Shown piece after piece: positions 1-41,544 of a DNA stretch of 64,000 nucleotides (its first letter is position 1; every line of letters begins with the position of its first letter). A model generated the notes under the pieces. It saw nothing but the letters and a program-made list of their open reading frames with translations, was not told where the DNA came from and did not search any database. Made by a program: the position numbers and the translations under genes. This DNA comes from Paramecium tetraurelia (lineage: Eukaryota): the NCBI GenBank assembly GCA_000165425.1, contig CT868005.1:1-64000 (forward strand), in the 5' to 3' direction.

Positions 1-3000
1 TAAAAAAAATTTTTTTGACCCCTTTTCCAAACTAATCCAATTCTCCCTTTTACCCATTAAATAAAATTTTAATTCCATTTTTCCAAGGCCTATTGTTTAT
101 TCCAAATTAGAAATAAAGCCAAAAATTTGGAATAAATAGAATCTGTAGTTTGAAGGAAATTATAATCTAGCTGAAATCAATTTGACGAAATATTCAAATA
201 TTATTCAATTAAATCAATCGATTTTCTTTTTATAAAATGTATTTTTGAGATTCTGTTTTAAGAAAAATTTGAGAATCATTCATTTCTAAGAAAATTCTTG
301 CAAAAGTTACAAAAGTTCTATTTTTAAAAAGTCCTTAAAGTACTAGTTATAAGGTTTCCATAGCGTAAGTAGGAGTCCTAGGATAAATTTAGAAAACGAT
401 CATTTTTTCATCAAAAATGATTATAGTTATATAATTAGAGGCACTAGAAAAGAGGAACTAAATCTTGCTGGAAGAGTTATATAAGTCCATGACGTTGAAA
501 CTTTATTTTATGCTTATCCTTGAAATGCAGGAAGAGGAACCTATTTTAATTACCTTAAATAGTAAATTATTGAATTCCCTCAAAATGGTGTACTCCATAT
601 TCGCTTAAGTAAACAAGAGAATTAAATTAATGTACACTATGTTGTAGTAGTAGATCGCTATGCTTAATCTATGAATCCGAAAAAAATGCAATGATTTTTG
701 TTATTTGTAGTTGATCCCTAATGGCGGGATCAATTTTGGGGGTGGGGGAATATATTTTAATACCTCAGCAAGTTAATTAAGAAAGAGTTGTTAATCTGAA
801 AGCGCATCGTAGTAGTGAAATTTCATTAAGAGCGCAACATAATAATATATATTATTCAAGTGATTGTAAATCGCTGAACATGACAATTCTATACTAAAAA
901 TCGAAAATTTAACCCTAATTTGATTGTGTCATCTTCTTATTGAATTAATTCTCATAAATTGTTGATATTACATTTGGGTGAAAACAGCGTTACTTAGAGG
1001 AAATATTTTAACTTAGTTTTGGTGTAATAAAAATACCATTAGTTGTCGATTATATCATACTATTTTTGATTTCCTTCTTGTATCTCAACTCTGTTTTCTT
1101 TGTTTCAATTTACTTTATCTTTTTGGATATTTGTCATTAAGATTATTATTATTTTCAGTATTTATTTCACATTAAGATAGATCTATTTTAATTCTATTAA
1201 AATTCTTTAAAACTTGACTATCTTTATATAATATGATTTAACAGTATTTTTTTGATATCTTTTATTTGTTTCTGAATTTACAAGATAAAATTGATCTAGA
1301 TGTTTCATACCAAATTGTTCTATCAGCTGTTGTTTTGGTAAAGTGGAAACAAAAATCTCAAAAAAAAATTCTAAAAGAATTGTTATTGCTGAGAGAGGAT
1401 TGTTAGTTATATAGAATAAAATTATTGAATAGTTAATATGTTGATTTATGTATCATTATGGACAACCATTTGGTATTTCGAGGTCCATATTCAATGGGCA
1501 GGAGAATTTTGAATATCTCTTCTTATTTGACGGTTATCATGCACAAAGTTGCATAGCATAACTTCATCAATTGCTATTTGAGCCATGATCTTATATCTAA
1601 AATTTTGATTTATATGACGAAGAAATGATCTCCACTCTTACACTAAATTCTCAATTTTTAGTGTCTGATTCCCTTTCTCTCATTCAATATTCACATTAAA
1701 ATTGAAACCCAATTACTATGCTCTTTATATATTACCTAAATATCCATGCCATTTTATGCAATCATATATCGACTGTATGATATATTATTTATAATTTGCT
1801 AGATTTTTCTTCATTTAATAAAAAATTTCTTAAATATTTAAGCAGACAATTGATAGACTAGAAAAACTGGCGTATAAGAGCCTCTGTTATTTAAATTTTC
1901 TAGTTTAAGCTACATGAAGTTAATATCGAAATCACTGAAGATGGCAGAATATATTTCAATCAGTCTAATGAGGAAACTTTAGTAATTGGCTTTATGGGTG
2001 ACAAGCAACTTTGAAATTCATTTCTAGGTCACATAGACAATGATAAAATAATTTTATCATTAGTTCTTGATGTGTCATAATTGAAACATGGAAGTTACTC
2101 CCTTCTTCCAATTTAGATCTATTAAAAGTAAGGGAGAGTAGATGGGAGATGTTATGACATCTATAGAGATCAAGAGAGGATAAAGGGAATGAAAGTGAAG
2201 TTTAAAAATGGGGGCTGATGACCCAACTGAGTCAAGCCACTCAGAGGAAGTTGTTGAATTATCTATCTTTGCATAGTTCAAGACAGAAAAGTTGAGCCCA
2301 ATTCAATTAAAATATCATACAGACAGACGATGAAGGACTCAATCAAGATATTAAATAATTTTTATTCACTCAGCTTTCTCAGGCTACTATTATAAAATAG
2401 ATTGGTATATCTTTCATCATGACAAATAGAGAAGCAGAGAAGCATTTGAAAACCACTATTGCAATCATAAAATATTAATAAACATTATTTCTAAAAATTT
2501 ACCCTTCTAATTTAGTTTATGTTAGAATTTATAGTCAAATTTCTTTGGAATCTAATAAGAATATTTTAGAGCTACTATTTAAGTGAGATTATCAAACGGA
2601 AAGTTGAAAATTCCCATAATAGAGAATTGTGAATGTGAATTCTGATTTGTTCAATTTAGACATTTCATCAATTATAGTATTTAGTAATTTGCAGTTAATT
2701 TTTATAATGAAAAGGAAATAGTTGGCCAATAAGGAATAGTGAAGGAACTAAAATAATAACAATACTTTTCATTAAGAACAACTTAAATTAAGGGATACAA
2801 TGCTGAATAATTGATCTCGATAGAAGTTGAAATACAAATATTGAATAACTCATATTTTGTATCTAATCTAAATTAGAAATCATCATCGATATGAATATTA
2901 AAATTATAACTTCTTTATTCGTTTAGTATTTAAAGTATTGTGCTATATATCATTATAATTCTTGACACTTCTTGCATTATTAATAAAAATTAAATCTCAA

Positions 3001-4804
3001 TGCAAATAATTTAACTCCATATTATATTAATCAAGAATAATATAAAGTCACATATAATGAAATTATTTGCCTTCCATATCTCATACTTGTGATAATTAAA
3101 ATTGCAAGTTGTAATATAAGGATCTTTAAGATTTATAATATCTTAAATTATTGTTTAGTTTTTTTTAAACACAATTTTTCTCAAGTAATTTTAGGTATTA
3201 TTTAGCCAGTCAACATAAATTGATTTGAATATATTTTAAGAAAGATATAATGGTCTTAATCCACTAAGGACACTTGTTAGAAATAAAATAAAAGTTAAAA
3301 TTATAATAAACAACATAGCCTCTGTTTGCTAAGGTCATATTTAAAGAATTGCATTTTTATAAGTTAATATTCGCATAACTAGAGGAATAAAATAGATTAG
3401 AAGCCAACCTTTGCTACTTTTAGCATACTACCTTCATCATCATCATCGAGAGAGATATTAAATATAGAATTGAGAAATTATACCTTTACAAATGAAAATC
3501 CGTTTGAACTAGAAATTCCTATTAGAGATTTGACTACGTAGTGTCGTAAATTTTTTAGATTTATATTTGAAATTTTTCTAAAATTTGATTTTTTGTGACA
3601 AAATTACCATTTTTTGAATTCTCTACTTTTTAATTAATCTAATCAAGCTCTCTTCTTAGTTTTATTTGTAGTTTTAAGAGATATTCTCAATAATCTTTTT
3701 AGTTCTGCCTACATCTCCTTAAAACCCTTATTATAGCAGTCTTAGTTAATATTACCCTGAAATTCATTTAATTTTGTATGAATTATCTCTTATTTAAAAA
3801 GTAACATCTTCTTAGTGAATTGAAGTTTATCATTTAAACATATAGAAATATTAAATTTGTAATGATCTTTAAGCTCCTTAAGAAATTTTGACCAAACGAT
3901 ATTCAAAAATAATCTAAAATTTGAAATAGGATGATTAAAAAAATTAATTTAGCACAACCTGATATTAAGATCAACAAGCAACACAAACAAGTTTAAAACG
4001 AAGTTTATTAAATTATTTCATTGAGTCAAAAAAAAAAACTTCAGTATGCATATATTTAAATTGATTCAGAAATTCATATTCGACCCAACCGCAAAAACTA
4101 ACTCAAAAAAATTTTCTTTCTTAACTCTTTTAAGTTTTAAACTTACTAAACCACTTCAATAATAAGTTACTTGCAATTTTTATCTTTACGATACCATTAA
4201 TCTCCAAGTGCTCTTTTTTAGATTCTTAATTTATTTGTTTCCATTTTCGATTATCTAAAAATAGCTTCCTTACTTTAACGTTCTTCACAGCGATTTACAG
4301 AGATTTGACAGCTACTGAAAATGAATTCAAGATCATCAAACCCTAAGAAGATAGTATCAAGAGGGTTATGGGTTTGCGTTGCTCAGATGCCTCAAAAATG
4401 TAATCGTAATCGATTTTCCTATCTTCGATTATGATATCATTACAATAAAGGTTTCAAAAATTATATGCACTAATTTTTAGTTTATTAAATTATCAAAGGC
4501 ATTCAGATAAGTGTCAAACATATAGCTTTTACATATTGAGTTCACCTCCAGAGATGATAATAAGGCTTGATCTGAAGGTTCAAAACTGAATTCTTCATCC
4601 CATAGGTGATAAAAATGAACTAATGTTGCTAATCTTGTATTTATTTTCAAGATAAGAACTGAGAATTATCCATATCTAAATTTTAACAATTGTAATTTGA
4701 ATCAAAAATTTTTAATCAATTATAAAACTATCTCACAAATTTATCGCTGATGACAATCCTTCCTATGAATTAATTTTCATTTTGCGGAACAAGTTTAGGA
4801 TCCT

Positions 4805-4954
4805 NNNNNNNNNNNNNNNNNNNNNNNNNNNNNNNNNNNNNNNNNNNNNNNNNNNNNNNNNNNNNNNNNNNNNNNNNNNNNNNNNNNNNNNNNNNNNNNN
4901 NNNNNNNNNNNNNNNNNNNNNNNNNNNNNNNNNNNNNNNNNNNNNNNNNNNNNN
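4805..4954. other. assembly gap (150 N)
   Basis: Run of N immediately upstream of the TPR array. Confidence 0.99.
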
Positions 4955-6793
4955 TAATCAATAGGAAAAAGAATGGTAATAGAAGGGTAGTTAATTGTTA
5001 ATTAATTAGCATTAGGTTTATCATTAGTATGTTTAAAGCAATATAACGAAGCAATTAAATGTTACGATGAAGCAATATCAATTAACCCTAAATATGCTTC
5101 TGCATGGTAGGGCAAGGGTAATAAATTACTACATATCAATATTAAGGTCAGGCGTTAGCAAATTTAAAACAATATTAAGAAGCAATTAAATGCTATGATC
5201 AAGCAATATCTATTGACCCTAAATATGCTTCTGCATGGTAGGGCAAGGGTAATAAATTACTACATATCAATATTAAGGTCAGGCGTTAGCAAATTTAAAA
5301 CAATATTAAGAAGCAATTAAATGCTATGATCAAGCAATATCTATTGACCCTAAATATTATCCTACATATTATTACAAGGGTAAATAAGTGTTGCTTATTA
5401 ATATTTAGGACTGTCATTAGCAGAGTTAAAAGAATATCAAGAAGCTATTAAATGTTACAATTAAACAATATCTATTAACCCTAAAGTTTTTAATGCTTAG
5501 AAGAACAAGGGTAATTAATTTTTATATATTAATATTTAGGTAATGCATTAGCAAAATTGAAATTATATCAAGAAGCAATTAAATGTTATGATGAAGCTAT
5601 ATCTATAGACCCACAAAATCAATCTGCACGGAATAAAAAGGGTAGTAATTGTGAAATATTAATATTTAGGTAACGCATTAATATGCTTAAAACAATATCA
5701 AGAGGCAATTAAATGTTACGATGAAGCAATATCTATTAACCCTAAATTTTCAAATGTTTGGAAAAACAAGGGTTATATTTTAAAAAAATAATATTAGGAA
5801 ATACATTAGCCGAATTGCATTAACATTAAGAAGCATTGAAATCTTATGAAGAATCAATATTAATCAACCCTCAATAGATTGATGCATGGTATGGCAAGGG
5901 TAATTACTTATTAAATAATAATTTTTAGGATTGGTATTAACGCAATTAAAACAATATAAACATGCAATTCAATCTTTTGATGAAGCAATATCGATTAACC
6001 CGAAATATAATGATGCATGGAATGGAAAGGGTATTTATAGGTAACATATTATCCTTAGGTAATGCATTAGCGAAATTGAATCAATATCAAGAAGCAATTC
6101 AATCTTTCAATAAAGCAATATCTATTGATCCTAAATGTGTTTATGCATTTTATAACAAAGGTAAATAATGGTTAAATTATAATATTTAGGATTGGCATTA
6201 GCTCGTTTATAACATTATCGAGAAGCAATTAAATGTTACAATGAAGCAATATCAATTAACCCTAAATATGGTTATGCATTTTATAACAAAGGTAAATAAT
6301 GGTTAAATTTTAATATTTAGGTAATTCATTAGCTCGTTTATAACATTATCAAGAAGCAATTAAATGTTATGATGAAGCAATATTTATTAACCCTAAATTT
6401 GATACTGCATGGAATATCAAGGGTAATTAATTGTTATATAAGAATACTTAGGTAAGGTATTAGTGCTTTTAACATATTATCAACATGCAATTAAATCTTT
6501 CGATGAAGCAATATCTATTAACCCATAATACAATGATGCATGGTTTAGCAAAGGTATTAATAGTTTTACATTACTATTTAGGATAGGCATTAGCACGTCT
6601 AAAACAATATCAAGAAGCAATTAAATCTTTCGACGAAGCAATATCTATTAACCCGGAATAAAATGATGCATGGTTTAGCAAAGGTATTAATAGTTTTACA
6701 TTACTATTTAGGATAGGCATTAGCAAGTTTAAAACAATATCAAGAAGCAATTAAATCTTATGACGAAGCAATATTTATTAACCCTAATTTAGA
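4955..6793 (+). CDS. TPR-repeat protein, partial (both ends in gaps); one intron per repeat
   Basis: Table-6 translation after splicing gives tandem 34-aa units, e.g. GQALANLKQYQEAIKCYDQAISIDPKYASAWQGK. Fourteen GT..AG introns: 4987-5015, 5118-5146, 5249-5277, 5380-5408, 5511-5539, 5642-5669, 5772-5797, 5900-5928, 6031-6058, 6161-6189, 6292-6320, 6423-6451, 6554-6581, 6684-6711. No in-frame TGA seen. Confidence 0.95.
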
Positions 6794-6943
6794 NNNNNNN
6801 NNNNNNNNNNNNNNNNNNNNNNNNNNNNNNNNNNNNNNNNNNNNNNNNNNNNNNNNNNNNNNNNNNNNNNNNNNNNNNNNNNNNNNNNNNNNNNNNNNNN
6901 NNNNNNNNNNNNNNNNNNNNNNNNNNNNNNNNNNNNNNNNNNN
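6794..6943. other. assembly gap (150 N)
   Basis: Run of N immediately downstream of the TPR array. Confidence 0.99.
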
Positions 6944-8599
6944 CCCAAACCCTCATGAGTGGCCGGCCATAAAGTTGAGTAATACAATTATAGTTAATTT
7001 AATGTAAAAAAAAGGTATTAAAAAGTTAAATAGAATGATAATTAAAGTTAAATATTAAAGTATTTAGTAGAATCCTTAAATGTAATAAAATCTATCATTT
7101 ATGTTGAAATATGTTTTAATCATAAACTAAATTTAATTTGTACTAGGAGTGTAATTGAAAACATAGAGGATTTGATTATAGCCTAAATACAAAATGGAAT
7201 AACCTTATCGTCAAATTACGGAGTACTTAAGAAGCAACATACAAAAATTAAAACAATTAAACATAAAAGTAGATAGGTATTATTTAAATACATTCAAAAA
7301 TAGAGGACATGGACAACACCGAACACTGTATCAACTGTTTTTAGTATAATTTTAATTTAATAAAGGTGAACGGCAACACCATATAATTGATTTAATAATA
7401 TTAATACCTTGGACTTAGAGTCTAAAATACAATTCTAAATTTTAAATTGAAATCCAAAAAATTAAGCTACCTTATTTTGCACAATTTCTCGACTCTATAC
7501 CTTTCCAAGCAAATTCACAACAATCTTCCTGCACCTTTTATGTGATTTCAGCATCCTCTTCTTTCACGATGAAATACATCCACGTCATCATTTTTTGGTC
7601 GACTTCTTACCTTCCTATTCCAAGCCATACTTTGAAACAAGGAAAAGAAAATCAACATTATGGATTAACTTATACGGTAATCCCCTTGAGAGGATCAATC
7701 TATCAATTTATGTCTATTTGAATAATTTTCCTTAATATTTGCTTATTTGACTTTTGATGGAATTTTAAATTTGAATTTTCGGGTTTTTGGTTATTTCGAT
7801 AATTGAGTTATATTTTTTAAAATAATATCATGTCCAAAAGATACAGTGTGAGGTAAAGGGAAAACCACTGATCTAGGGATCGTAAAGATAAGACATCACC
7901 CGAAGTACTTAAGCTAAATGAATCCCGGAATGCAGAGAGTTACTTGAACAGAAAAGCTTATAGGAAGACATTATAACCACCTTGTAAGAATGGATGATTT
8001 AGGACTTTTACACCATGTATGGTTAACTAGGGCAGCATTGGAAATTTTAGACTTCATCTATGAACAAGGTATGGGGTAGGTAACAGATATTAAAAATAGA
8101 CGGAAGGAATATATATAAAGGGAAGAAAAATGAGAAAAATAATTATGGTTTAGGAAAAGGAGGAGGAAGTCGGAAGAAGATATGAGTGAGTAATCAATAA
8201 ATCAATCTGTTATTTCTGTATAGGATTAGATTGAATGCTTATCATTATGTTTATCATAGATTAGCCTACCTTATATTCTTTGATATATCCTTGGCCACTT
8301 TATAAGGATGGATACCTTTTTTTGCCATTCTAAAATTCATATGTATTCTTAAAATGCCAGCTAATTTATTTATTTATTCTATTAAAACAATTTAATATCA
8401 TATATTTAATAAAGAATAAAATTATAAAGATTAAAGAGATTTTAAATACATTGGTAGGATCATTCATTACAATGGTCTGACTTCCATTAATTTAAGTGAT
8501 ATTCAAGGATTATTTATTATTTTTCTGTCAATATAATCCAATCTCACATAAAAATTTTATTTAAAAAGTATTTTTCTCTTCACAGTTAATTTTTTTCCA

Positions 8600-10640
8600 A
8601 TTCAATGAGCTTTTCCTTCATCTAGATATTCATATTTTTTAAAGGATTCTCTACATTTAATTTATTTACTTACTCATTATTCTAAAATTTACTTTATTTT
8701 GTTTTTGGATCCTTTGAAATTAGTTATTTCTAAGATTAAATAAATGTTTAAAATTAAGTAAGCACTTAGATTTAGAACAATTTATTATAAAAAGGAATAT
8801 CCTTTATTTTGCTTCTTTCTTTTGAAAAGAAGAAAAAGATAATTTTCAATCCTGCTTGATTATAATCAAATTCCGAAGAATTATCGACATCAGCAAATAA
8901 TTATATAATTCTTTTTATTCAAAGAAATTTTCGTTCATATTAAGTTCTTCTTTCATAATCGTTAAGTTCTGTCAAAAATTATGTACATTAGAATGATTGT
9001 CAAGAAATTGAGGATGAAAATCCAGCAGCAATTTAGAAAATAGTTTTTCGAGATATTCCAATAACTAATTAGATTTTTTTTTTATTTTTTATGACTTTAA
9101 TACTTAATTGTCCATGTTTTGCATACCTGCATGCATAGACAATTTTTTTATTGGATTAAAACAAACTATGATGTCTTCCAAGGCTGATTTCCTTGATTAT
9201 TTATTATAGATTTAAGATTGAATGAACAATACCTTATTTATTCTAAAATTGAATTTGTCTTTCTTTTGTACTAAATTATCTTAGAAATCTCCTTAGCAAG
9301 TTTCTCCATACATTCCATAAGCCCAGGACCATAATTCTACGTCCTTGTCTACTGCCATTATGTGATAACCACAGTAACTGAATTAACAATATTATCTTTA
9401 ACTGCTTAGAGAGTTTCTACATCTTACAAATTTTCATGACCTATGGTTAGAGATGACATTGTTCTTTCAGTTATAATCCCTCTTTTAAATGATGCAATTC
9501 AAATGAGAAATGATCCTTCTTCTCTAAACCAAGGTCCAAATGACTAATCAGAAATTAATGCTTTCTGTTTCTGAATTAACATCTCCAACTTGCACCTGCG
9601 TAATGATTATATAAGTATTTACTTCTTATAGTGTTTCCAATACTTCCATAACCTAAGTACTTCCTGCATAACACTATGATTTATGTTATAAATAGTGTAT
9701 TTTACAATTAATTAGTGCTTGCTATCTGAATGTATAAGTGATATCAATTTGAATAAGTTTCTGTTAAAAAATAAACTCTAACGTTGAAATAACTGAGGAT
9801 TATATTTTAGTTCCCTCTTATTACATGTAATCCAAGACTCTACTTGAATCGCGTGCACTATCCATCTAATTATTGCGATGCTATTAGTGAGATAGTTAAT
9901 ACTTTCTTTGTGGGTTTAGTATTCCCCTAGTCACGCTCAGCATTAATTAAAATCAGGAGATCTCAATATCAAGCACACTAATTATAGCTTGGAGAAAGTC
10001 TCGATAGTGATTAAAGTTTTTCTTTTTTTTTTAATTTGTGGGCAATGCTTATACTTAAATCAAACATTGAATTTATGTTACTTATCGTATAAGTTGTTAA
10101 TATCGCCTATGCCTATCTGATATTGATTCTGTTTTTTAGAGGATATGTTTTTTGAAATTTGCTCTACTAAAAGATAATCCAGTTAGATATAATTCTTAAG
10201 TAGCACATATATTCTGTTGATAACTTTCTCCTTATCCATGATATAATCAAAAATCCAGTTGCCTTTACTAATGTTGAATTGCTTGTGGTGTAGCGGCTAA
10301 CACTTGTACAGAGTGCAATGAATAATTAAGAGTTTTACTTTGAACCAAAAAGCAATCTTCTTACATATGCTCGTGCCTTGATTCTTTGAAATTCAGACCA
10401 TTGATCTTAAAGAAAGGAAAAATTGCAATTTTGCGCCTTCAGACCATCTCATACCTTGTTATTCCTGTAAGGAATATATCTTACTACTGTTAATTGCTGT
10501 GTTTGGAACTTTACTGAACATATGATCGTATTGGAATTGGAGGTACTTTTTTATCATCCCTTGTTATGTTAAACAATTGAATAGTTTTTCTCTCCAGTAC
10601 CTTAGTTCATCTCTCTAATATTATGGCAATACTTCTTCAT
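8600..10640 (-). pseudogene. decayed coding-like sequence, product not identified
   Basis: Protein-like stretches on the minus strand (LDEEVLPQYQRDELRYWREKLFNCL; LMECMEKLAKEISKII; LLEYLEKLFSKLLLDFHP) broken by TGA stops and frame changes. Boundaries approximate. Confidence 0.3.
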
Positions 10641-11178
10641 CTAATTTTTTAATGAAGCAAAAACCTCATAAAAAACATTTTTCGAAGAAAAAATTTGTAA
10701 CAGTTGTGCTTTTTTCACTTTTCTATTTCTTAAAAAAATTGAAATTAACCTTAATTTCTCTTCTACTTGATTTTTATACCCCTAAAATTAAAAATCCTTT
10801 CAGATTTTGTGATTGGAAACATAGAAAACAGAGTAAAGAATAGGCGTATTTTTAAATAATCATAGTGACAATTTTTATAAACTTCTACATAGACTGGTTC
10901 TAAGAAGGAATAAAAATACAAAACAAATTATTTAGCAACCACCCCAGCACAAAGAAATACAATTTCTTAGAAATTCATGGATAAATTGTTGGGGTTGGTC
11001 AAGGCTGACATATGACTGGCCATAAGACGTCAGTAATATTTTCTGCATAAGGACATGTAGATAGTACATCCCCAAATACCTTTGTTATTATTGATAATTA
11101 GGAAAATTTGTGGATGCCTAATTGTTTTGCTTGACTTGCTGTGCCTGTTGCTAGGTTGGCCTAATCTTATAGCCAGTT

Positions 11179-11290
11179 GTATTTCGGCCGTTTTGTCTAG
11201 GTGATCATTCGTATTCCGGCTGTAGGGGCTTAGGAAAACATTCGTATTCCGGTCGTCGGTGATGAGGAAAATCACTCTTATTTTGGCCAT
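11179..11290. repeat. short GC-rich degenerate direct repeat, ~33-nt period, 4 units
   Basis: gtatttcggcc (11179), gtattccggc (11211), gtattccggtc (11244), ttattttggcc (11278). The middle two share cattcgtattccgg. Confidence 0.5.
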
Positions 11291-12297
11291 CGACACAGGG
11301 TCTCTTTTATACTCTCTTCCTCCTCCTCCCCAAATAAAAAAGATCTAAAGTAGCGCTTTGAATATCTTCACAACTTATGTAGGATCTAAAGCAGACAAAC
11401 CAGCAAAAATAGAAACACTAACGAAACTATTGTATAATTTTTATGTAGAGCACCACCTCAAGTATAAATTTATCCATCATCGAATAAGCAGAACTTATGA
11501 TAATCTCTCGTTGCCCCTTAGGTCAGAAATCAAATTTCATAGACTAAACTAGATAGAATTTCAGATTAGATCGTTGATTTGCATCTTCAAACCAAGTTAC
11601 CTAAATATTATTTTTTTTTAATTTAAATTCAGACCATACTGCTGAACCACAAATAAAGAGTTGACCATCAAATTTCATAATTCCTGAATGAATCTAACCT
11701 GAATTTATTAATTAAGCTGCTTAATTCTTCAATTCTTCTATTATTTTTAGAGTATTGCATTTCTTTTGATTGCCCTCCTCACAAAATTCATATCCAATTT
11801 ACTATTGACAATTCTCTACCTTTGTTAAGTCCCCATGCAAAAAGATAACTGATATATGAATCCCCTCCAGCAAATGATGAGAATGGATATATTATATTTG
11901 AATTTATTTTATTAAAATGGATAGATGGTTGGAAGTTGAACTGCTAATATTTTAAAAGGGATTAAAATATTGACTTTTATGGAAAAATTGAAAATCAAGC
12001 CCTCAATAAGATTAATTACATTTTTCAATTTTATTTTCAGAAGTACCTTTAAAGATTGAGAAAAACTATCAAACTTGAAATAGTACAGGCTTCCTGAACT
12101 CATCCACCCACTATAAGATTTCTAAATTATTGAGTAAACAAACTATTGCAAGTAAGAGTCAGGAGCAATAAGCAATATATTGAAAAGAGCTAGCTGAACT
12201 AAAGATCTAATTGTAAAAATAGTTTTGAATTATTTATTCTTTAGTTTCTCGATTTCTGATTTTGATTGAGTTATCTTTATATCTAATTATTAAAAAA

Positions 12298-15200
12298 ATG
12301 AGTGATGATTAGCCTGAAGCAAACAGGCTATCAGTTAAACAATTGGCTGGAAGATTTCAGTCAATGATGAAAGCTGCACCTGTTTAGTAACAACAATAAC
12401 CTCCTCCTAGAAAATCTGAAGTTATTGCTAGAAATCCATAGCAGTAATTGTAAAACATGGAAGAAACGAATAAAGTTCTTAGCAAACTTGAAGTTGTTGA
12501 AAATGACGAAGATTCCAATCAAAGGTCTAGTGAAACAGTTGAATCATTGCAAAAGGTTATCGAGAATCTTTAAAAAGATTGCAACAAAAAGGATTAGAAG
12601 ATTCAGGACTTGTAAGAAAATTTAGTCATCATGTCTGATTAAATGAAATTTAGGGAATCAAAGATTCGAGAAGAGGTCTAATAGGAAACAAAAGAAACGA
12701 GTGAGTTTGGAAACGAAAGAGTGAAATTAATTACTGAATTGCGCAAGTGTTAAGTAGATCTATAAGAATCGTAAAAACAAAATGCTAATAAGTTCTCTCA
12801 AATTTAATAGTTGACAAATAAAGCAACTCAGATATAGAATTTGTCAAAACTAGAGATTGATAAATTAAAGTAGTAGAATCAAGAATTAGAGGAAAAACTC
12901 TTATAAAGCTAATAAAAAGTTGATTAATTAGCTCAAAAAATTGAAGAATTAAAAGAATTAAATAGCTAATTGAATCTCTAAAGTTAAGAGGTTGAAGATG
13001 TCAAATAAAAATTAGAAAAGGAATTTTAGTAGAGATATGATGAAGTCGAATTCGAAATTATCAATAATAGATAAATTATTGAGGATCTTTAAATTTAATT
13101 AAAGGAACTTAAGGCACTAAATTTATAATTAGAATCTGCTGCGATTAATGGAACATTTGATATGAAATAGCAAATTAGTTTATTGTAGGATTAAACAAAT
13201 GAGTTGTAAAACTAAAACCAAGAATTATAATAAAAACTTCATGCTAAATAAATTGAATTTGATCAAATGAATAAAGCCAAATCTAGAGAAATTGAAAAGC
13301 TTAAACAAGATAAAATTGAATTGCAGTAAGAATTAGAATAAACAAAACAAATATCTGAATAAACTTAGGCTGAAACTGAATCTAACTATAAAAATCAAAT
13401 GTTAATTTTGTAAGATAAATTTCAGAAAAGCGAGGAATAAACATCAAAATTAAATTAAAAAATCTAAGAATTATCTGCTGATCTCATTTAAGAAAGAATG
13501 CTCTACAAAAATAATGAATCATAGTTAAATGGAGTCATAACATAATAGAAAGATGAGCTATCCTAAAAATCAAGCCTGGTATTATAATTGACTGAAAAAA
13601 TCAGGATATTGTAAGATCACTCTATGTAATAAGAGACAAACATATCAAAAAATATTGATGACTATAAAGTTTTACTTGACTAAAATAATCAATAAATCAC
13701 ACAATTATCTGAATAAATAAAGTCGTTGAAGAAACAATAAAGATAATAGGAATAAGAAAATAAGTAGGTAATTTCTTAATATGAATAATAAATTAAGCAA
13801 TATTTGGCTGAAATTACATAAACCAAAATCCAAAAGAATGAATCAGACAACTAAAGACAAAATAGTGAGAGTTAATTAAGCTAGATTATTGAGAAATAGA
13901 AGGTCTAATTGCAATAAGCAAATGCAATTATTTAAGATTTGAATAACCAGATTGAATAATTCTAATAAAACATTTAAGATTAAGAAGAACAGAGAATGAG
14001 TGTGATATCAGTGAAATAGTCCTTGTTAATTGAGAAAGAAAGTCAAATTAATATGCTTGAATCATAAGTTATAAAATATTAAAATGAATTAACTCAAAAA
14101 TAAGACTAAATCATAATATTGCAATAATAATATGAGAAATAAAAATCAGACTTTAATTTAGCAATTTCTGAAAAGGAGAAAAATGCAAAGTTAACAAATT
14201 AATAACATTAAGAGTTATAGAATAAAGTTTCTGATTTGACTTTTGAGGTTAATTAGTTACGATCATTAGTTGATAAGGCAGAGGTGGACAAGGAATCAAA
14301 TATCCAATAGTATAATGAGGCAAATCAATAATTAAAAGATTAATTAAACACATAAAATAGTTTGATTTAAGAATTGCAAGAGTATCTAAAGGAAAGTAAT
14401 TCTAAAGAATAATTAGCCTTACAGAAGTCAACTCAATAGAGCTTAGAAATCAATTAATTATAATTGGAGATTGGAAAACTGAAAAATGATTTATCTTAAC
14501 AAGAATAAAAACAATCCTAAACTAATTTAGAGAATTCATATAAGTTGAAAGAATAATAGACCTAAAATGAAACTTTGAAGAATGACTTTAAGTAAATATA
14601 ATTAGTTTAAGACAAATTAAAATAAGAAAATTTTTAGTTGAACGAATAAATAAATGATTTGCAAATAAAACTGTAAGAGAGTCAAGAAAACCTAAAATAG
14701 ACCACATAAATAAATGAGAATTAAAAAGAATAGCTTTAAAAGTTAAATGATTAATTATATTAAGAATAGCAGAAGGAATCTGTAAATTAAACAGAGAAAT
14801 TTTATTTATAATAATTAATCTAATAGCATAAAGATTAAGTTAACGAAGTTCATGAAAAGAATAAGTTAATAACTAGCATTAGTGAGTCAAAAGATAAGTA
14901 AATAGAAGCACTTAAAAAATAAGGAGAAGATGCTCAAAAACATTATGAATAATAAAAATAAACTTAATATGAGGAGATGGTGTAATTAAAATAAAAATAC
15001 GAATAATAATTCCATATACTTGATGATGAAAAGAAGAGCTTAATAGCTGAATATACTAATAGAATTGCAAATTTAGAAGAAATCAATAATGATTATTAGA
15101 AAAATTCATCTATTGAATAGAGTCAATTCAATTAGGAGAAATTGAACTTAAAATAATAATTATTAGATCAGCAAGTAAAAATAGAAAAACAATTAAAGGA

Positions 15201-18200
15201 GATTGAATAAATGTAGGGTTAATTGGAACAGAAATAGTAGGAGATCATTTAGATTAATTTAAAAAATGAATGTGAAGTGTTATAATTGTCAGAAGAATTA
15301 GTTTAACTGAAATAATTAAACACAAAGCAAGTAGAAGAGATTAATGAAAGGGATCTAATGATCACTCTTCATTAAACATAAATTAATTTATAAGATGATC
15401 AATTTAGATTAGAAATTTCAAATTTAAATGTTAAGATAGATAATATTCTAAAGGAGAATTAAATTTAAATTGAAGATATTCATTCTAATCATCAAAAGTA
15501 ATTGTTACAAAAATAAAATGAAATTTAAGATAAAGAATATTAAATTAAGAAGCTTGATCAATAATTGTTTGATTATTAAGCTTAGATGGAATAAAGATTG
15601 GAATATATTTAATAAAAGGAGTAAGAAGTAGAAAAATTAAGTTAACATAATGATGTCTTAGAGAATGATGCTTAATAAAAGGAATAAGAAATAATTCAAT
15701 TGAAAAATCATAGTCAAAATTTAAGTGTTGAACTTGAGAAATTCAAATAATATTCTTAGTTGGAATAAGAAAAATAATAATAGGTGATTCTAGAATTAAC
15801 TGAAAATCTAAAGTAGTCAGAACAGTTGTTCAAATAATAAAACAAATCTATGGAAGATTAGATAAAGAGTTTAGAATAACAAATAACAAATTAAAATCAA
15901 AAGATAGTTCAATTATAAGATAGTATAAATCAATTGAATTAAAAGTATTAAGAATTAAAAAATGAAAAATAATTGAAAGAAGCTGAATATGAAAAGTAGT
16001 TATAAGAACTATAAAATCAGAGCGATATTCAAAATGAAGCAATCGATTCTCAAATCTAAACAAATGTTGAATAATCTGACTAGATTTCAAAATTGGAACA
16101 GAATAAGTCATAATTATTAGAAGAACTTTAAAATGTTGTTGAAGAAAAAAAACAGGTAGAATTAACATATAAATAAGCAATTGAAGATTTGAAGACAGTT
16201 CAAGATCAAAGAATAGCAGAGATCAATAAAAAGAATTAGGATTTAGTGCAACTTAAGAATATGATCTTGATATAAAAGGATGAAGAACTGGAGGAACTTC
16301 GATAATAGCTTTAATAAAGTTAAGAAGATTTTATTAAATAATAAAATCTGAATGATTCTTTATAAATCCATTCAAGAGAATTGAAAAATAAATTTGATGA
16401 ATATATAGAAACAAAGTTTTCAGAAGAGAAGCGATTAAATAATGAATTAGATTTGACTGAACAAAAAATAAATGAATTATAAGAACAAGTTGATCAACAT
16501 GCTGAAACAATACAAAACTTATAGGGAGATATTTAAAGAAAAGACTTAGAATATTTATAATTATAATCTCAATTATAGACAAAAATCCAATAGCACACTC
16601 TAGAACTTTCTGACCTTGGTGGAAAGATGAATGAGGAATAATTGAAGCATCAAATTGAAATTAATCAAAAGCAGCAAGAGATAAGTGACCTAAATTTTTA
16701 GATTTAAGAAGGTAAGGAGAAGATTGAAGAATTGTCAAATATTATTATTGATAAAGAAACAATGATTAAGTCTTTGGAGGAGACTATTGAAGGAAATACT
16801 AATTAGGTGCAATAGCAAAGTATTAAGATTCAAGAACATTAGAAATCTATCGAAGGGCTCACTTTAGAAAATCAAAATAAGCAAAAGTAGTTAGAATAAT
16901 CAGCCAAGATTATTAAAGATACATAAATAGAATTAGAAGAGTTGACAACTTAATTGACCGATTAAATTGAAAAGTTTAATCAAATTGAGGGATCGTATTT
17001 AAAATTGCAGCAATAAAATAAATCATTGGAGGAACTTTATAATAACACATTGAAATTATTAGAAACAAAGGAGGAAGATTTGACAACTACAGTAATTTAG
17101 AAGAATGAAGAGATTGCAAGCATTCACTTATCATTGGAAAAGCTAAAATAGGAGTCTGAAAAGGAGTATAAGCAATTGGAAGATTATTCATATGAGTAAT
17201 TATTGAAGAAAATGGATGATATTGCTTAAAAGGATTGGGAGATTGATCAACTCAATCAAGTGGTTCAGGATTTGAACTAGAAATTGCAGGCTGGTATGGA
17301 ATGTGTTGAGCAGTATGATAAAGAATTCGACAATCAAATAAAAGAGATTGATGAATTAAAATCTAAAATCAAATAGAAGGACAAGGAAATTAAAGAATGT
17401 AATGAGATTATTGAAAAATAGAAATTAGAAATTGAAGCTGTTAACAAATAAATGAATGAAGAACTTTAATTAGTAACCTAATCACTCTAGGAAAATTAAT
17501 CGAATTATGATCTTGAACTATAAGCTAAATTAGCTATTTTAAATAAAAAAGAAGCTCAGATCCTAAATCTAGATTTTCAGATTGCAGAATTCTAATAAAA
17601 TCTAAATTAATAGAAGGATTAAATAGAGGAATTAGTTCAAGAGAGAAATGTGCTAATTGAAAGATAAAAGCTGATAGAGGATGAAAAAAATTAGAGTGAC
17701 AAAGAATTCAAATAATAAATTTAAAGTTTGAAGGAAAGCTTATCTGAATTCGAAGAAAACTATAATTACTTGAAATAGTAACATGAAGAGGTATAAAATT
17801 AATTTGCTTCTTAAAAAGAGTTGTATAACGATTTATAATAAAAATATGAAGAGGATTAAGAGAGTAGTCAATAATTAATTTAAGATTTATAAAGTTAAAA
17901 GGATAAATAAAATATTGAATTTTAGAAGTACATAAAAGAATCAGATCTGAATATTCAGAAAGCAAATAATAAGATAAATCAAAAAGAAGAAAAAATTGCT
18001 CAATAATAACATTTGATAGAAACTCTGTAAAGTAATCTTGAAGATAAAAATTAATAGCATGATGAATAAGGATAAAGGTTATTTGAGAAATAAAATGAAT
18101 TGAATTAAGTTATTCTAGAAAAATAAACTAATGAGAAAAAGCTTAGTTAGCAAATTTAAGAATGCAATAATAAAATTGCTTCATACAATTTAGAAGTCGC

Positions 18201-20461
18201 ATAATTATCTTAATTAATAACTCTAAAGGAGTCAGAAAAGTCTTAATTATCAAAATAATTTGAGCAAACTTCAGACTAATTAAAATAACAGTTATTCTAA
18301 TAGACCTAATTCATTTAAGAACTTTAGGATTACATCAATGAAAGTTAAGAAAATGAATCAAAAGCAGGATAGAAGATTAATACTCTCAATCTATAAATTA
18401 GCACATTGGAATTTGAAATTTCTAATCTTAATTGCGAAATTCTCAAGCTGCAGAATACTATAAAATAATCGAAAGAAGAAAAATTAAGATTGGAAGAGGA
18501 TCATCAGCAAGATATTATTTAGATTCAATAATAATTGTAGGCTGCTATTAGTGCCAATCAATTATTGAAGAATGAAGCTCAAAAGAAATAAATTAATTTG
18601 TTTGAGAATGAATAAAATTTAAATAGTAAAATAGAACAATAAGTTTATGAAATTAAGATTTTAAAAGAAGAGATTTAGAGGCTCTAATTAGAAATGTAAA
18701 GGCAAGTAAAAGAAAGTGATTCTAATTTAAATAATAAAAATGAAATGATTGACCTATTGAAAAAATAGTTAATTGATATATAGAATAGCGCTGCTAATGC
18801 CGAAGAAATGAAGGATCTAATTTAAAGGCAATTACAAGACTAAAGTTAATCTCAAGCTCAATAATTAAATTAACAAATAAAAACGAGGGATGATCAAATT
18901 ACAAATCTTAAATAATAAATTTAGCAATTGTCTTAAAGTAAATAACAATAAGAATAGCTATTAACTGAATAAATTAGTGTTCTGAATTAATAAATAAGAT
19001 CAAAAAATGAATCTATGAATTAATTAGATGAGTCTATAAAATACTTTAAAAGTTAAATTGATTAATCAAATCTGACAATAACCTAATTACAATAAGAAAT
19101 ATAAAGTTTAAATAGTAAACTTCAATCTTCTAAAAACGACTAAAATCAAATTAATGAAGAGAACAAAGAATTGTAAAATAAAATTGAAATTGTATAATAA
19201 ATATCAAATACTGCGTAATCAGAATTAGAAAAGCTAAAGTAACAAATTTTGAAATTAGAAGAAGAAAAATAAAGACAAAGTGAGTAAATAAAACAACTGA
19301 GTTCTTAAATAAATGATCAAAATTCTTAAAATTTACAAATAACGCAAAAGTTGTTAAGCTAAAAGGAGGAGAAAGAGTTAATTGATCTATAATAGAAAAA
19401 TATTTAAGAATAATATTAACAACATAGAGAATAATCAGAAAAACAGATATATCAATTAACTAATAACGTTTCATAATTAGAATAGACTTTGTCGGAAATT
19501 TAAAATAATTTGTTGTTGGTGAATAAGTAAAAATCAGAATCTGAAGAAAAATTGAATAAATTAGGCCAATAATTATAAAATGTGAATTCTTAATTGTCAG
19601 ATTCAAGAGATAAATACGAAAGCGAGAATTAATAATAATTATAATAAATAAATAATCTTAGTTAAGAAAATTCAGAATTATAATAGACTCTCAATGAGAA
19701 ATTAGAGGAGTTAAGTAAGCTCTAGCTTGACAATACCAAATTAGTGTAAAATTAGAAAAAGGTTGATAAATTGGAAAGTTAAGTGTAAGAATTGAGTGCA
19801 CTAAAAGAATAAAATGGAAAGCAAATAGAATAATAAGAATTAAGACTGAAATCCTAGTAATAGGAGTTAGAGTAACTAAGAGAAAATTATAATTTATAAA
19901 AAAATCAATTGAATTCTTTGAATCAATAAATTGCATAATATGAAATAGATAAGGATAAGTTGAGCAAAGAGATCAAGTAATTATAGAGTCAGAATTAAAA
20001 TTATCTGAGTCAAGTTTAAAAGTATTAGGATTATATAAATTAATAATAATAAGAACTTGAGAAGAATACGATTTCAAACAGAAGCATAGTGATTAATGAT
20101 GCTTAAGGGTAATAATTAGAAGCAGAATTAAAGATCTTATAAGTTAAAGTATGTATTCTATTAATTAAATAGTTGGTGCAACAGTTAAATAATTATAAAT
20201 AGTTGATCTAAGATAAAAAGAATTAAGAGATAAAGGCCAAGATCAATGAGGATTTAGATTAGATAAAGAAAGATTACGTTATGGCTTTAGAGAAGATAGG
20301 AATATTCATAAGGGGCATAGAAGATTTAGAAAAAGTAAATGGACCAAAAAATTAGTAATATCATGTTTTTAATTTCTAGAAACGAATTAAATAAATCAAT
20401 AGCAGGACTTAAAGATTTTATTTCAAAGTTTGCAAGCACCATTTTGAAAGATATTAAATGA
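12298..20461 (+). CDS. giant Gln/Glu/Lys-rich coiled-coil protein (~2,700 aa)
   Basis: aaaATG at 12298 (MSDDQPEANRLSVKQLAGRFQSM...). The frame reads open with TAA/TAG=Gln to 20148, heptad-like throughout. Candidate introns at 20149-20172 and ~20355-20379; ends ...STILKDIK-TGA. Confidence 0.9.
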
Positions 20462-20594
20462 GTCATTGTGTATTTTCAATTTAATAATGTTCTTTTTTAA
20501 ACATTAATTTATTTGAATGATTCTTTAAAAGTAACTCATAATTTAAGTAAGTTTAGTACTTTTCTATTCAAAAAGGGAATTAATCGATATAATT

Positions 20595-40500: not shown

Positions 40501-41544
40501 CTGACAATAGAGAAGTAGCCATCATTTGTCTACTAGAAATACTGTACATTATGATAGTGTCTTGCTAGATGAAGATGTTTTCATTTCTGTAAGTAATACT
40601 GTATATGATGATCATGTTTGGATTGTTCTTAGGGTTCTACATCTCTTCAGACTTAATCACTCATTATGCAATCTTCTATATTTGTTGTTGCATGCTGATC
40701 CTATTATTGGGATATTATCTGGCAATGAGTGAACAAATCCAAATGTTCAACAATTTGTAGATCAATGAAGAAAAGAAGGTCAAACGAATTAATCTTGTCA
40801 GTTAACTATTACCTATGCACTCCTACCTTAAAATGAAGAATAGTAACATCTACGATAAGAGTGACTTTATAGATGAGTTTGATGATGTGACTCTCCTTTT
40901 TGCTGACATTAAAGGATTCACTGAGTACTCTCATACTCAGACTCCAGAAGGTGTAGTAGTAATGTTGAGAAATCTCTTCACTGAATTCGATAAACTTTGT
41001 CAAAGATACAATGTCTACAAAATGTACACTATTGGTGATTGTTATGTTGTCATGGGATTCACTAATAGTGCCAAACGAAATGTATTCTCTCATATTCATT
41101 ATTTAGCCTATTTAAGAAGCCATTAACACTGTCAAAATGGGATTTCAGATGGTCGATATCATCATGTCAGTTAGATAGAAAATCAAATTTGATAAATTAA
41201 ATATGAGAATTGGTATCCACACTGGCTAGGTAACTGGAGGTATCATAGGAACTGATATTGTACGATATGATATCTATGGAAAAGATGTCTCCGTTGCCAA
41301 TAAAATGGAAAGCAGTGGAGTTGAGGGAAGAGTTCAAGTCTCTGAGACCACTAAGTTAATGATAGAAAGAGCTGAAAAACATGCTTTCAACTTCAAATTC
41401 CACCATGTAAATTAAGTTCATCTATTCTAGGATGTTGAGTTGAACAAATTCAATATGAATATCAAGGGATTCCTTGTAGATTGGGATAAAACAAGAGAAG
41501 AGGCTAGTCTAGATCCATATAGATCACCAAGTCACCATATATGA
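34514..41544 (+). CDS. bifunctional P4-type ATPase-like / transmembrane guanylyl cyclase (alveolate GC); assembly carries apparent frameshifts
   Basis: ATPase motifs VPADIILL, DGKS (35109), LIPSTLY, DKTGTLT (35775), LMLCHEA, WLLSGD, GVGDGYND. Two TM blocks. C1 ILFAYICDF..KIETVGYTYMA..GVIGHHKPQFSLIG; C2 LLFADIKGFT..KMYTIGDCYV..MRIGIHTG..RYDIYGKDVSVANKMES. Several short introns. The start could be 34601/34610 instead. Confidence 0.93.

What the first reader, a model, noticed from the sequence alone, without database searches (positions are those of the whole stretch)
4955..6793. One-exon-per-repeat TPR cassette array: 13 exons of exactly 102 nt, all phase 1-1
Seen: every intron splits the same Gly codon (..K-G|G..). 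The 13 complete exons (starting 5016, 5147, 5278, 5409, 5540, 5670, 5798, 5929, 6059, 6190, 6321, 6452, 6582) are all 102 nt = 34 codons. Introns are 26-29 nt, none a multiple of 3. Other genes in this window have only a few irregularly placed introns. Established: symmetric exons can be duplicated, lost, swapped or skipped without frameshift; Tetrahymena LRR genes with uniform 90-nt exons are a ciliate precedent. Inference: this may be a TPR-based modular receptor/recognition system diversifying by exon-unit recombination. It is intact amid decayed sequence and unassembled at both ends.
Basis: partly seen in the sequence, partly recalled or inferred. Interest (0 to 1): 0.82.

Follow-up and report, generated by a model that had tools for sequence, protein, structure and literature searches.

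The report
Paramecium-type TPR gene, one exon per repeat
This is a real stretch of a ciliate gene in which each 34-residue TPR repeat sits on its own 102-base exon between tiny introns, most likely an ordinary member of the large Paramecium TPR gene family that grew by copying a 131-base exon-plus-intron unit.

Summary
Window 4955-6793, a small contig between two 150-N gaps, carries 13 complete 102-nt exons at the stated starts and a partial unit at each end. There are 14 GT..AG introns of 29, 28 or 26 nt, and all split a Gly codon after an invariant Lys. Under the ciliate code every exon is a TPR, starting at Gly8 of the motif.

The uniform exons are explained by tandem amplification of a 131-nt DNA unit:
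- TRF reports 13.5 copies.
- Neighbouring units are the most alike.
- The newest duplication has its boundaries inside exons, not in introns.

The closest named relatives are TPR proteins of Paramecium aurelia species. Published work on P. tetraurelia already mentions "TPR coding exons" and DNA-level TPR tandem repeats, and reports no exon skipping.

Coding function is inferred from intact frames, invariant splice sites and conserved framework residues. Spliced RNA from this locus was not seen. Both ends of the gene, the true unit number and any genome-wide 102-nt exon class could not be tested, because no genome is held. I rate it a new member of a known kind, of modest interest.

The parts
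4805..4954 (.). assembly gap (150 N) upstream of the array
4955..4986 (+). 3' end (32 nt) of an upstream exon, divergent from the other units, ending in the same ..K-G|G junction
   Evidence: unit profile only E 3.8 here
4987..5015 (+). intron, 29 nt, GT..AG
5016..5117 (+). exon 1, 102 nt, one TPR-length unit (starts at Gly8 of the motif)
5118..5146 (+). intron 1, 29 nt, identical to intron 2
5147..5248 (+). exon 2, 102 nt; chimera: its 3' 33 nt equal exon 1 and its 5' 80 nt equal exon 3
5249..5277 (+). intron 2, 29 nt
5278..5379 (+). exon 3, 102 nt
5380..5408 (+). intron 3, 29 nt
5409..5510 (+). exon 4, 102 nt
5511..5539 (+). intron 4, 29 nt
5540..5641 (+). exon 5, 102 nt
5642..5669 (+). intron 5, 28 nt
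5670..5771 (+). exon 6, 102 nt
5772..5797 (+). intron 6, 26 nt
5798..5899 (+). exon 7, 102 nt, the most divergent unit (TPR_1 25.6 bits, below the 27.8 cut-off)
5900..5928 (+). intron 7, 29 nt
5929..6030 (+). exon 8, 102 nt
6031..6058 (+). intron 8, 28 nt
6059..6160 (+). exon 9, 102 nt
6161..6189 (+). intron 9, 29 nt, 97% identical to intron 10
6190..6291 (+). exon 10, 102 nt
6292..6320 (+). intron 10, 29 nt
6321..6422 (+). exon 11, 102 nt
6423..6451 (+). intron 11, 29 nt
6452..6553 (+). exon 12, 102 nt (TPR_1 18.7 bits, below cut-off)
6554..6581 (+). intron 12, 28 nt, identical to intron 13
6582..6683 (+). exon 13, 102 nt
6684..6711 (+). intron 13, 28 nt
6712..6793 (+). first 82 nt of a 14th exon, cut by the gap
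6794..6943 (.). assembly gap (150 N) downstream of the array
5085..5357 (+). youngest duplication: perfect 131-nt periodicity (142 identical bases at offset 131); both boundaries lie inside exons

Best explanation
The stretch is the middle of a protein-coding gene of a Paramecium-type ciliate. It encodes a long TPR solenoid of at least 15 repeats, a protein-protein binding scaffold. It belongs to the expanded, fast-changing TPR gene family of Paramecium.

The array was built by repeated tandem duplication (unequal crossing-over or replication slippage) of a 131-nt DNA unit made of one 102-nt coding segment plus one tiny spliceosomal intron.
- Every copy inherits the same intron at the same place, inside the codon of Gly8 of the motif. 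That is why all exons have the same length and phase.
- A 131-nt unit is not a multiple of three, so the frame exists only after splicing.
- Selection then removes any length change in exons but tolerates 1-3-nt changes in introns.
- In-register exchange at any point of the period makes chimeric repeats and changes the repeat number without breaking the frame.

Shown here: the anatomy, TPR identity, unit duplication with breakpoints inside exons, and family membership. Inferred: transcription and splicing, the scaffold function, and the mechanism of duplication.
For: Anatomy:
- 13 exons of 102 nt and 14 of 14 GT..AG inserts of 26-29 nt.
- Insert GC is 0.16 against 0.30 in exons.
- These values fit the P. 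tetraurelia introns described by Gnan et al. 2022: 18-33 nt, mean 25, GC about 13-16% (PMC8997360, passages).

TPR identity: every exon matches TPR_1, TPR_2 or TPR_11, always from profile position 8.

Duplication:
- TRF finds period 131 and 13.5 copies.
- Adjacent units are 0.769 identical against 0.727 for non-adjacent ones; 15 of 10000 permutations reach this.
- Positions 5085-5357 are perfectly periodic, with boundaries at exon positions 70 and 80. A second run of 64 bases lies at offset 130.

Selection:
- There is no in-frame TGA. Only 863 of 20000 neutral simulations stay stop-free.
- All 56 splice-site bases are kept although intron interiors are only 74% alike.
- Exon length never varies, while 5 of 14 introns vary.
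- dN/dS is 0.32 at 22 framework codons and 0.64 overall.
- 10 of 13 retained introns would meet a TGA within 47-353 nt.

Family:
- The best named relatives are TPR proteins of P. tetraurelia, P. octaurelia and P. primaurelia. Mean best-unit identity is 55-62%; five of the six rank above every other hit (at most 55.5%), and the sixth falls just below the best of them.
- Two public P. octaurelia gene models contain whole TPR units read in the wrong frame. This is expected if non-3n inserts also separate their units.

Literature:
- 'TPR coding exons' in P. tetraurelia (PMC6771405, passages).
- TRF-detected TPR repeats in macronucleus-destined DNA (PMC5405496, passages).

The array's words recur at 0.86-0.89 share in 15 DNA-type runs of one organism, from several studies.
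Against: - No spliced read or contig of this locus was obtained, so transcription and splicing rest on sequence logic.
- Start, stop and terminal domains are missing. The piece is a 1.8-kb contig tied to gene-poor flanks only by scaffold gaps.
- Short-read assembly of a 77%-alike tandem array can misorder or collapse units, so '13' and the unit order may be wrong.
- The stop-codon simulation is only modestly significant (4.3%).
- Units are related by descent, so conservation partly reflects youth rather than selection.
- The margin by which Paramecium proteins beat bacterial TPR proteins is small, because this repeat is close to the universal TPR consensus.
- The organism is inferred from features and relatives. 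It is not named by any tool.
Confidence: 0.75

Rival explanations
1. The array is part of a modular recognition or receptor system that diversifies by swapping, losing or skipping whole exon cassettes, within and between loci, as proposed for Tetrahymena LRR genes.
For: - Symmetric phase-1 exons would allow it.
- Variation is concentrated at 11 helix-A and loop positions (pN 0.47 against pS 0.33), while 22 framework positions are conserved.
- Exon 2 is a chimera of its neighbours.
- In a DNA run, 134 contigs match parts of the locus at 95% or more. Summed depth over the conserved words is 100-400 times that of the rest, hinting at many look-alike units elsewhere.
- TPR is among the top domains of species-specific genes in Tetrahymena (PMC6564038, passages).
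Against: - Breakpoints of the youngest duplications lie inside exons, not in the 26-29-nt introns.
- The variable codon set was chosen after looking at the alignment, so its dN/dS of 1.71 is circular.
- No skipping joint was seen, and exon skipping is unreported in P. tetraurelia (PMC8997360).
- No receptor, membrane or signalling domain lies in or near the piece.
- Concentration of variation on helix A is usual for any TPR protein (recalled).
- Exchange between loci could not be tested without the genome.
Confidence: 0.1
2. The array is a dead relic. It is a non-expressed TPR pseudogene fragment in gene-poor, possibly germline-limited or subtelomeric DNA, still looking intact only because its units were duplicated recently.
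For: - Flanks 1-4804 and 6944-12300 have no recognisable genes in 84 of 85 long frames.
- A weak TPR-like remnant lies at about 8630-8850 on the minus strand.
- No start, stop or terminal domain was found.
- No transcript evidence specific to the locus was found.
Against: - Synonymous divergence between units is substantial (pS 0.35). Even so, there are no stops, no exon length change and no lost splice site, and framework dN/dS is 0.32.
- Adjacency to the flanks is only by scaffolding.
Confidence: 0.1
3. The 26-29-nt inserts are internal eliminated sequences (IESs) removed from the DNA, not introns. Under this reading the window shows germline DNA.
For: - Their size matches the shortest Paramecium IES class (recalled).
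- P. tetraurelia TPR genes carry up to 10 IESs per kb, placed at the 5' end of TPR exons (PMC6771405, passages).
Against: - GT..AG occurs in 14 of 14 inserts.
- TA-bounded deletions of the right length exist only at inconsistent offsets (1, 4, 9, 12, -7, -10).
- No such deletion exists at all for 2 of 14 inserts.
- The published pattern is an IES in addition to an intron in each unit. That would give a unit longer than 131 nt.
Confidence: 0.03

Closest known systems
TPR-motif gene family of Paramecium tetraurelia (Vitali et al. 2019, PMC6771405; Guerin et al. 2017, PMC5405496; Arnaiz et al. 2012, PMC3464196; passages only)
   Same: - Ciliate TPR genes with separate 'TPR coding exons'.
- Repeats detectable as DNA-level tandem repeats.
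- A multi-copy family.
- Function unknown.
- The closest named proteins to this array are from P. aurelia species.
   Different: - The papers do not state exon length, phase or the Gly8 junction. My searches for '102-bp exon' wording found nothing relevant.
- Their hallmark, an IES at the 5' end of each exon, cannot be seen here.
- The listed relatives have 5-7 repeats, while this piece has at least 15.
Tetrahymena LRR genes with arrays of exactly 90-bp exons (Xiong et al. 2019, PMC6564038, passages)
   Same: - Arrays of equal-length, same-phase exons, each one repeat long.
- Intron-plus-exon units detectable as nucleotide repeats.
- Growth by ectopic or unequal recombination.
- Variable repeat number.
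   Different: - TPR, not LRR.
- 102 nt and phase 1, not 90 bp and phase 2.
- Introns of 26-29 nt, not about 56-257 bp.
- A different genus. That paper says P. tetraurelia LRR genes lack such a peak.
- A genome-wide exon class and exchange between loci are shown there and untested here.
Canonical TPR solenoid proteins (Pfam TPR_1 PF00515 and clan)
   Same: - 34-residue period.
- W4, G8, A20, Y/F24, A27 and P32 are conserved.
- The repeat is very near the universal consensus, so cyanobacterial kinase-TPR proteins score as high as ciliate ones.
   Different: Gene structure. Each repeat length is on its own exon, offset by 7 residues from the structural repeat.

Membership tests
TPR repeat (Pfam TPR_1/TPR_2/TPR_11) | Profile match above the curated score | tested here: met
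   11 of 13 single exons reach the TPR_1 gathering score of 27.8 bits (30.5-38.1 bits). Exons 7 and 12 score 25.6 and 18.7 bits.
TPR repeat (Pfam TPR_1/TPR_2/TPR_11) | 34-residue period with the signature residues (W4, G8, A20, F/Y24, A27, P32) | tested here: met
   G8 13/13, A20 13/13, P32 13/13, Y/F24 13/13, A27 11/13, W4 8/13. The numbering of signature positions is recalled.
Paramecium tiny spliceosomal introns | GT..AG ends, 18-33 nt, very low GC | tested here: met
   14 of 14 are GT..AG, lengths are 26-29 nt, GC is 0.16. Ranges are from PMC8997360.
Paramecium tiny spliceosomal introns | Removed from RNA (spliced reads) | tested here: inconclusive
   Contigs of three RNA-type runs touched only short stretches inside exons. 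No 26-29-nt skipping joint was reported.
Paramecium TPR-motif gene family (Vitali 2019) | Closest relatives are Paramecium TPR proteins | tested here: met
   P0309, P0017, P0259, P0302 and P0271 top the ranking by mean best-unit identity (56-62%). The best non-ciliate hit reaches 55.5%. The margin is small.
Paramecium TPR-motif gene family (Vitali 2019) | An IES at the 5' end of each TPR exon in germline DNA | not testable with these tools
   This needs germline and somatic DNA of the same locus. It is not known which nucleus the window represents.
Uniform-exon repeat arrays (Tetrahymena LRR type, Xiong 2019) | Three or more consecutive exons of identical length with one intron phase | tested here: met
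   13 consecutive 102-nt exons and 14 of 14 phase-1 junctions.
Uniform-exon repeat arrays (Tetrahymena LRR type, Xiong 2019) | LRR-coding 90-bp exons with phase-2 introns | tested here: not met
   The exons are TPR, 102 nt, phase 1. This is an analogue, not a member.
Uniform-exon repeat arrays (Tetrahymena LRR type, Xiong 2019) | A genome-wide exon-length peak and exon exchange between loci | not testable with these tools
   No genome is held. Only hints from contig depth are available.
Paramecium IES (as a reading of the inserts) | TA at both boundaries, with precise excision restoring the frame | tested here: not met
   There is no consistent TA-bounded deletion, and none at all for 2 of 14 inserts.

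The most novel reading that the evidence does not exclude
Paramecium may hold a genome-wide class of 102-nt, phase-1 TPR exons. This would be an independent counterpart of Tetrahymena's 90-bp LRR exons. In it, in-register unequal exchange inside and between loci keeps making chimeric repeats and new repeat numbers. Change would be focused on the ligand-facing helix-A positions, and possibly further modulated by an IES in each unit. That would mean two ciliate lineages separately built fast-diversifying binding-protein repertoires from exon-plus-intron cassettes.
Probability: 0.2. Interest if true: 0.6.

Novelty: new member of a known kind. Interest (0 to 1): 0.33.

Why it matters
The locus shows clearly how a repeat protein can grow at the DNA level by copying a unit that is not a multiple of three. 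The copies stay readable only because each carries its own intron. The locus also shows why such genes break assemblies and gene predictors: the array sits between two gaps, and two public Paramecium gene models of relatives contain repeats read out of frame. If the 102-nt phase-1 exon proves to be a genome-wide class, it would parallel the Tetrahymena LRR story in a second ciliate and a second repeat type. It would also give a simple marker for counting TPR units. As a single locus it is ordinary.

Tried and rejected
1. RNA evidence. Runs X17 and X18 (RNA by guess) and X20 (RNA) were laid beside DNA run X1.
- They covered 9, 9 and 7 of 30 bins, only with contigs of 32-65 nt that lie inside exons.
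- Some ran on into unlike sequence, so they may come from paralogues.
- No intron-skipping or exon-skipping joint was listed.
- The three joints listed skip 395, 630 and 318 nt with foreign letters between. They look like repeat mis-joins.
- Neither expression nor splicing of this locus can be concluded either way.

2. Whole genome.

3. Metagenome scan with a 20-base degenerate word from the conserved core. It returned 36 loci. None of the 36 carries the 131-nt array, and 4 show a single weak partial hit at the word itself.

4. Idea that the intron arose as a copy of the first 30 nt of the exon, since both often start GTAAT and end ..TAT.AAG. The mean alignment score was 1.9 against 0.83 +/- 0.63 for shuffles (maximum 3.3), and another exon offset scored higher. 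Rejected.

5. IES reading of the inserts. Rejected.

6. Coding on the minus strand. 0 of 9 long frames have a Pfam match.

7. Search for the missing ends. N-terminal and C-terminal parts of six Paramecium relatives found nothing convincing in the flanks, the best being E 0.026 outside the array.

8. Naming the organism through the DNA ligase exon. I chose 'longer' lengths and obtained only 30-36% identical ligases of other eukaryotes, which was uninformative.

9. Earlier notes of this scan. There were none for this genome or sequence, and the word search returned only unrelated TPR findings.

10. Literature wording for '102-bp/nt exon(s)' gave one unrelated paper.

Full report
WHAT IS THERE

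Window 4955-6793 is a 1839-nt contig between two runs of 150 N (4805-4954 and 6794-6943). Tandem Repeats Finder reports one array there: 5032-6787, period 131, 13.5 copies, 77% matches, score 1441. The other nine rows for the window are short repeats of period 16-33.

They are separated by inserts of 29,29,29,29,28,26,29,28,29,29,29,28,28 nt.
- Upstream lies the last 32 nt of a further, divergent exon and a 29-nt insert (4987-5015).
- Downstream, a 14th exon starts at 6712 and is cut at 6793.
- All 14 inserts begin GT and end AG: 13 begin GTA, and 12 end TTAG.
- Their GC is 0.16 against 0.30 for the exons.

With TAA and TAG read as Gln, each segment preceded by one G translates into 34 residues without a stop. 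The coding frame has 0 TGA; the other two frames have 3 and 21. Gly1 and Lys34 are invariant, so every insert splits a Gly codon after its first base.

WHAT IT ENCODES

Every exon matches the Pfam TPR models. Taken alone, 11 of 13 exceed the TPR_1 gathering score, and the match always begins at profile position 8. An exon is therefore one repeat long but offset by seven residues from the structural repeat. It carries the end of helix A, helix B, the loop and the start of the next helix A.

The signature residues are kept: G8, A20 and P32 in 13 of 13 exons, Y/F24 in 13 of 13, A27 in 11 of 13, and W4 in 8 of 13.

None of 9 long frames on the minus strand has a Pfam match. A profile of the 131-nt unit hits nothing else in the window.

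WHICH ORGANISM AND WHICH FAMILY

The rest of the window, from 12 kb on, is gene-dense and ciliate-like. It holds a P-type ATPase fused to two cyclase domains, a DNA ligase, Myb, WD40, PHD and kinase genes, all readable only with TAA/TAG=Gln.

A profile of the exons finds TPR proteins from all of life, because this repeat is close to the universal consensus. I ranked all retrieved proteins by the mean best identity of their units to the 13 exons.
- Five proteins of Paramecium tetraurelia, P. octaurelia and P. primaurelia come first (56-62%, maximum 70.6%).
- The best other protein reaches 55.5%.

Insert sizes of 26-29 nt fit P. tetraurelia introns (18-33 nt, mean 25; PMC8997360, passages). They do not fit the roughly 56-bp introns of Tetrahymena (PMC6564038, passages). 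I therefore treat the source as a Paramecium-type ciliate. This is an inference; no tool named the organism.

HOW THE ARRAY AROSE

The units are copies of each other. Mean pairwise identity is 0.73 for exons and 0.74 for introns.
- Neighbours are more alike than non-neighbours: 0.769 against 0.727, reached by 15 of 10000 permutations of unit order.
- The youngest event is visible directly. Positions 5085-5226 are identical to 5216-5357, a perfect 131-nt periodicity whose ends lie at position 70 of exon 1 and position 80 of exon 3.
- Exon 2 is thus a chimera of its neighbours.
- A second identical run, 6532-6595 = 6662-6725, spans the end of exon 12, intron 12 and the start of exon 13.

The recombining unit is therefore the 131-nt DNA period in any register, not the exon. 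The 26-29-nt introns are not the places of exchange. Uniform exon length and phase follow automatically, since each copy inherits the same intron at the same codon. This is the mechanism proposed for the 90-bp LRR exon arrays of Tetrahymena (PMC6564038).

IS IT A WORKING GENE?

The evidence is indirect.
1. Synonymous divergence between units is sizeable (pS 0.35), yet there is no in-frame stop. In a crude neutral simulation only 863 of 20000 arrays stayed stop-free.
2. All 56 splice-site bases are intact, while intron interiors are about 26% diverged.
3. Five of 14 introns depart from 29 nt, which is at least four events in 399 nt, but none of 13 exons (1326 nt) changed length. At equal rates about 13 events would be expected in the exons (my arithmetic). 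AT-rich introns may, however, be more prone to indels.
4. dN/dS is 0.64 overall and 0.32 for 22 framework codons.
5. No insert is a multiple of three, and 10 of 13 would bring a TGA into frame within 47-353 nt if retained. This is the pattern expected under the NMD-based counter-selection described for Paramecium (PMC8997360).

Against this, no spliced transcript of the locus was seen, and the gene's start, stop and terminal domains are hidden by the gaps.

Variation is indeed concentrated at 11 positions of helix A and the loop (pN 0.47 against pS 0.33). I picked those columns after seeing the alignment, so the ratio of 1.71 is circular. Such a distribution is also common to TPR proteins in general (recalled).

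There is a hint of many look-alike units elsewhere in the same DNA sample. In DNA run X1, 134 contigs match at 95% or more, and summed depth over the conserved words is two orders of magnitude above the rest. The tool warns that this is not a copy number.

Two public P. octaurelia gene models contain whole TPR units translated in the wrong frame: 40 local hits at E of 1e-3 or better, up to 80% identity to out-of-frame translations of these exons. This is what unremoved non-3n inserts between units would produce. It suggests that the same architecture exists at other loci and in other species. A multi-locus family with this gene structure is therefore likely.

Other parts of the interpretation find no support.
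- Cassette-wise shuffling is not supported, because breakpoints lie inside exons.
- Exon skipping is unreported in P. tetraurelia and was not seen.
- Nothing points to a receptor.
- The Paramecium relatives carry a Cys/His-rich N-terminus without a Pfam match, a coiled-coil-like stretch, 5-7 TPRs and a conserved C-terminal cap. None of these termini is detectable in the flanks.

WHAT IS ALREADY KNOWN (passages only were read in each paper)

- Vitali et al. [quoted passage not shown]
- Guerin et al. 2017 note that tandem repeats found by TRF in macronucleus-destined DNA include TPR repeats (PMC5405496).
- Arnaiz et al. 2012 mention multi-copy IESs in expanded TPR repeats (PMC3464196).

None of the passages I saw states the 102-nt length, the phase or the Gly8 junction. 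A search for that wording found nothing relevant, though figures and supplements were not seen.

The inserts here are not IESs. No consistent TA-bounded deletion restores the frame.

CAVEATS

The array is a short contig in a scaffold, so its orientation, neighbours, unit count and order are uncertain. Its 31-mers recur at 0.86-0.89 share in 15 DNA-type runs of one coded organism from several studies. The sequence itself is thus reproducible, but contigs in those runs are broken every 90-400 nt.

VERDICT

The structure is best explained as a member of the known Paramecium TPR gene family, grown by tandem duplication of an exon-plus-intron unit. It is a TPR analogue of the Tetrahymena LRR exon arrays. 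The diversifying-receptor reading remains a minority possibility that needs the whole genome, long reads and cDNA.

Noticed in passing
window 12229-20520 (+): One uninterrupted 2,763-codon frame with 401 TAA/TAG codons. It is very rich in Q, E, K and L, looks like a coiled coil, and has no Pfam match. It coincides with a strong GC and AT skew.
   Followed up: no
window 34701-41544 (+): P-type (phospholipid-translocating) ATPase domains are followed by two adenylate/guanylate cyclase catalytic domains in successive overlapping frames. This is the ATPase-cyclase fusion typical of ciliates and apicomplexans (typical by recall; domains).
   Followed up: partly
window 6944-6970: The contig after the downstream gap begins with CCCAAACCC, a fragment like a ciliate telomere repeat. 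It is followed by a GC-rich GGCCGGCC word that is unusual for this DNA. No telomere-like run of two or more units exists anywhere in the window.
   Followed up: partly
window about 8630-8850 (-): A weak TPR-like remnant lies in the gene-poor flank. Several exons hit 8700-8765 (best E 0.012), and the N-terminal parts of two Paramecium relatives hit 8628-8843 (E 0.45-0.9). It may be a decayed TPR gene fragment.
   Followed up: partly
proteins P0077 (residues 176-237) and P0017 (residues 1-33), Paramecium octaurelia: Public gene models contain whole TPR units translated out of frame. Unremoved or misplaced tiny introns are the likely cause. TPR genes of this family seem to be systematically mis-annotated.
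   Followed up: partly
proteins P0259, P0271, P0302, P0309 (Paramecium aurelia species): These proteins share one architecture: a Cys/His-rich N-terminus (B-box-like by eye, no Pfam match at E of 0.01 or better), a coiled-coil-like stretch, 5-7 near-identical TPRs and a conserved C-terminal cap.
   Followed up: partly
window 9003-9743 (-): This is the only Pfam match in the 12 kb of flanks. It is a weak RCC1-like fragment (E 1.5e-5, 25 bits against a cut-off of 150).
   Followed up: no
window 11206-11271: Two copies of a 33-nt unit that is much more GC-rich than its surroundings.
   Followed up: no
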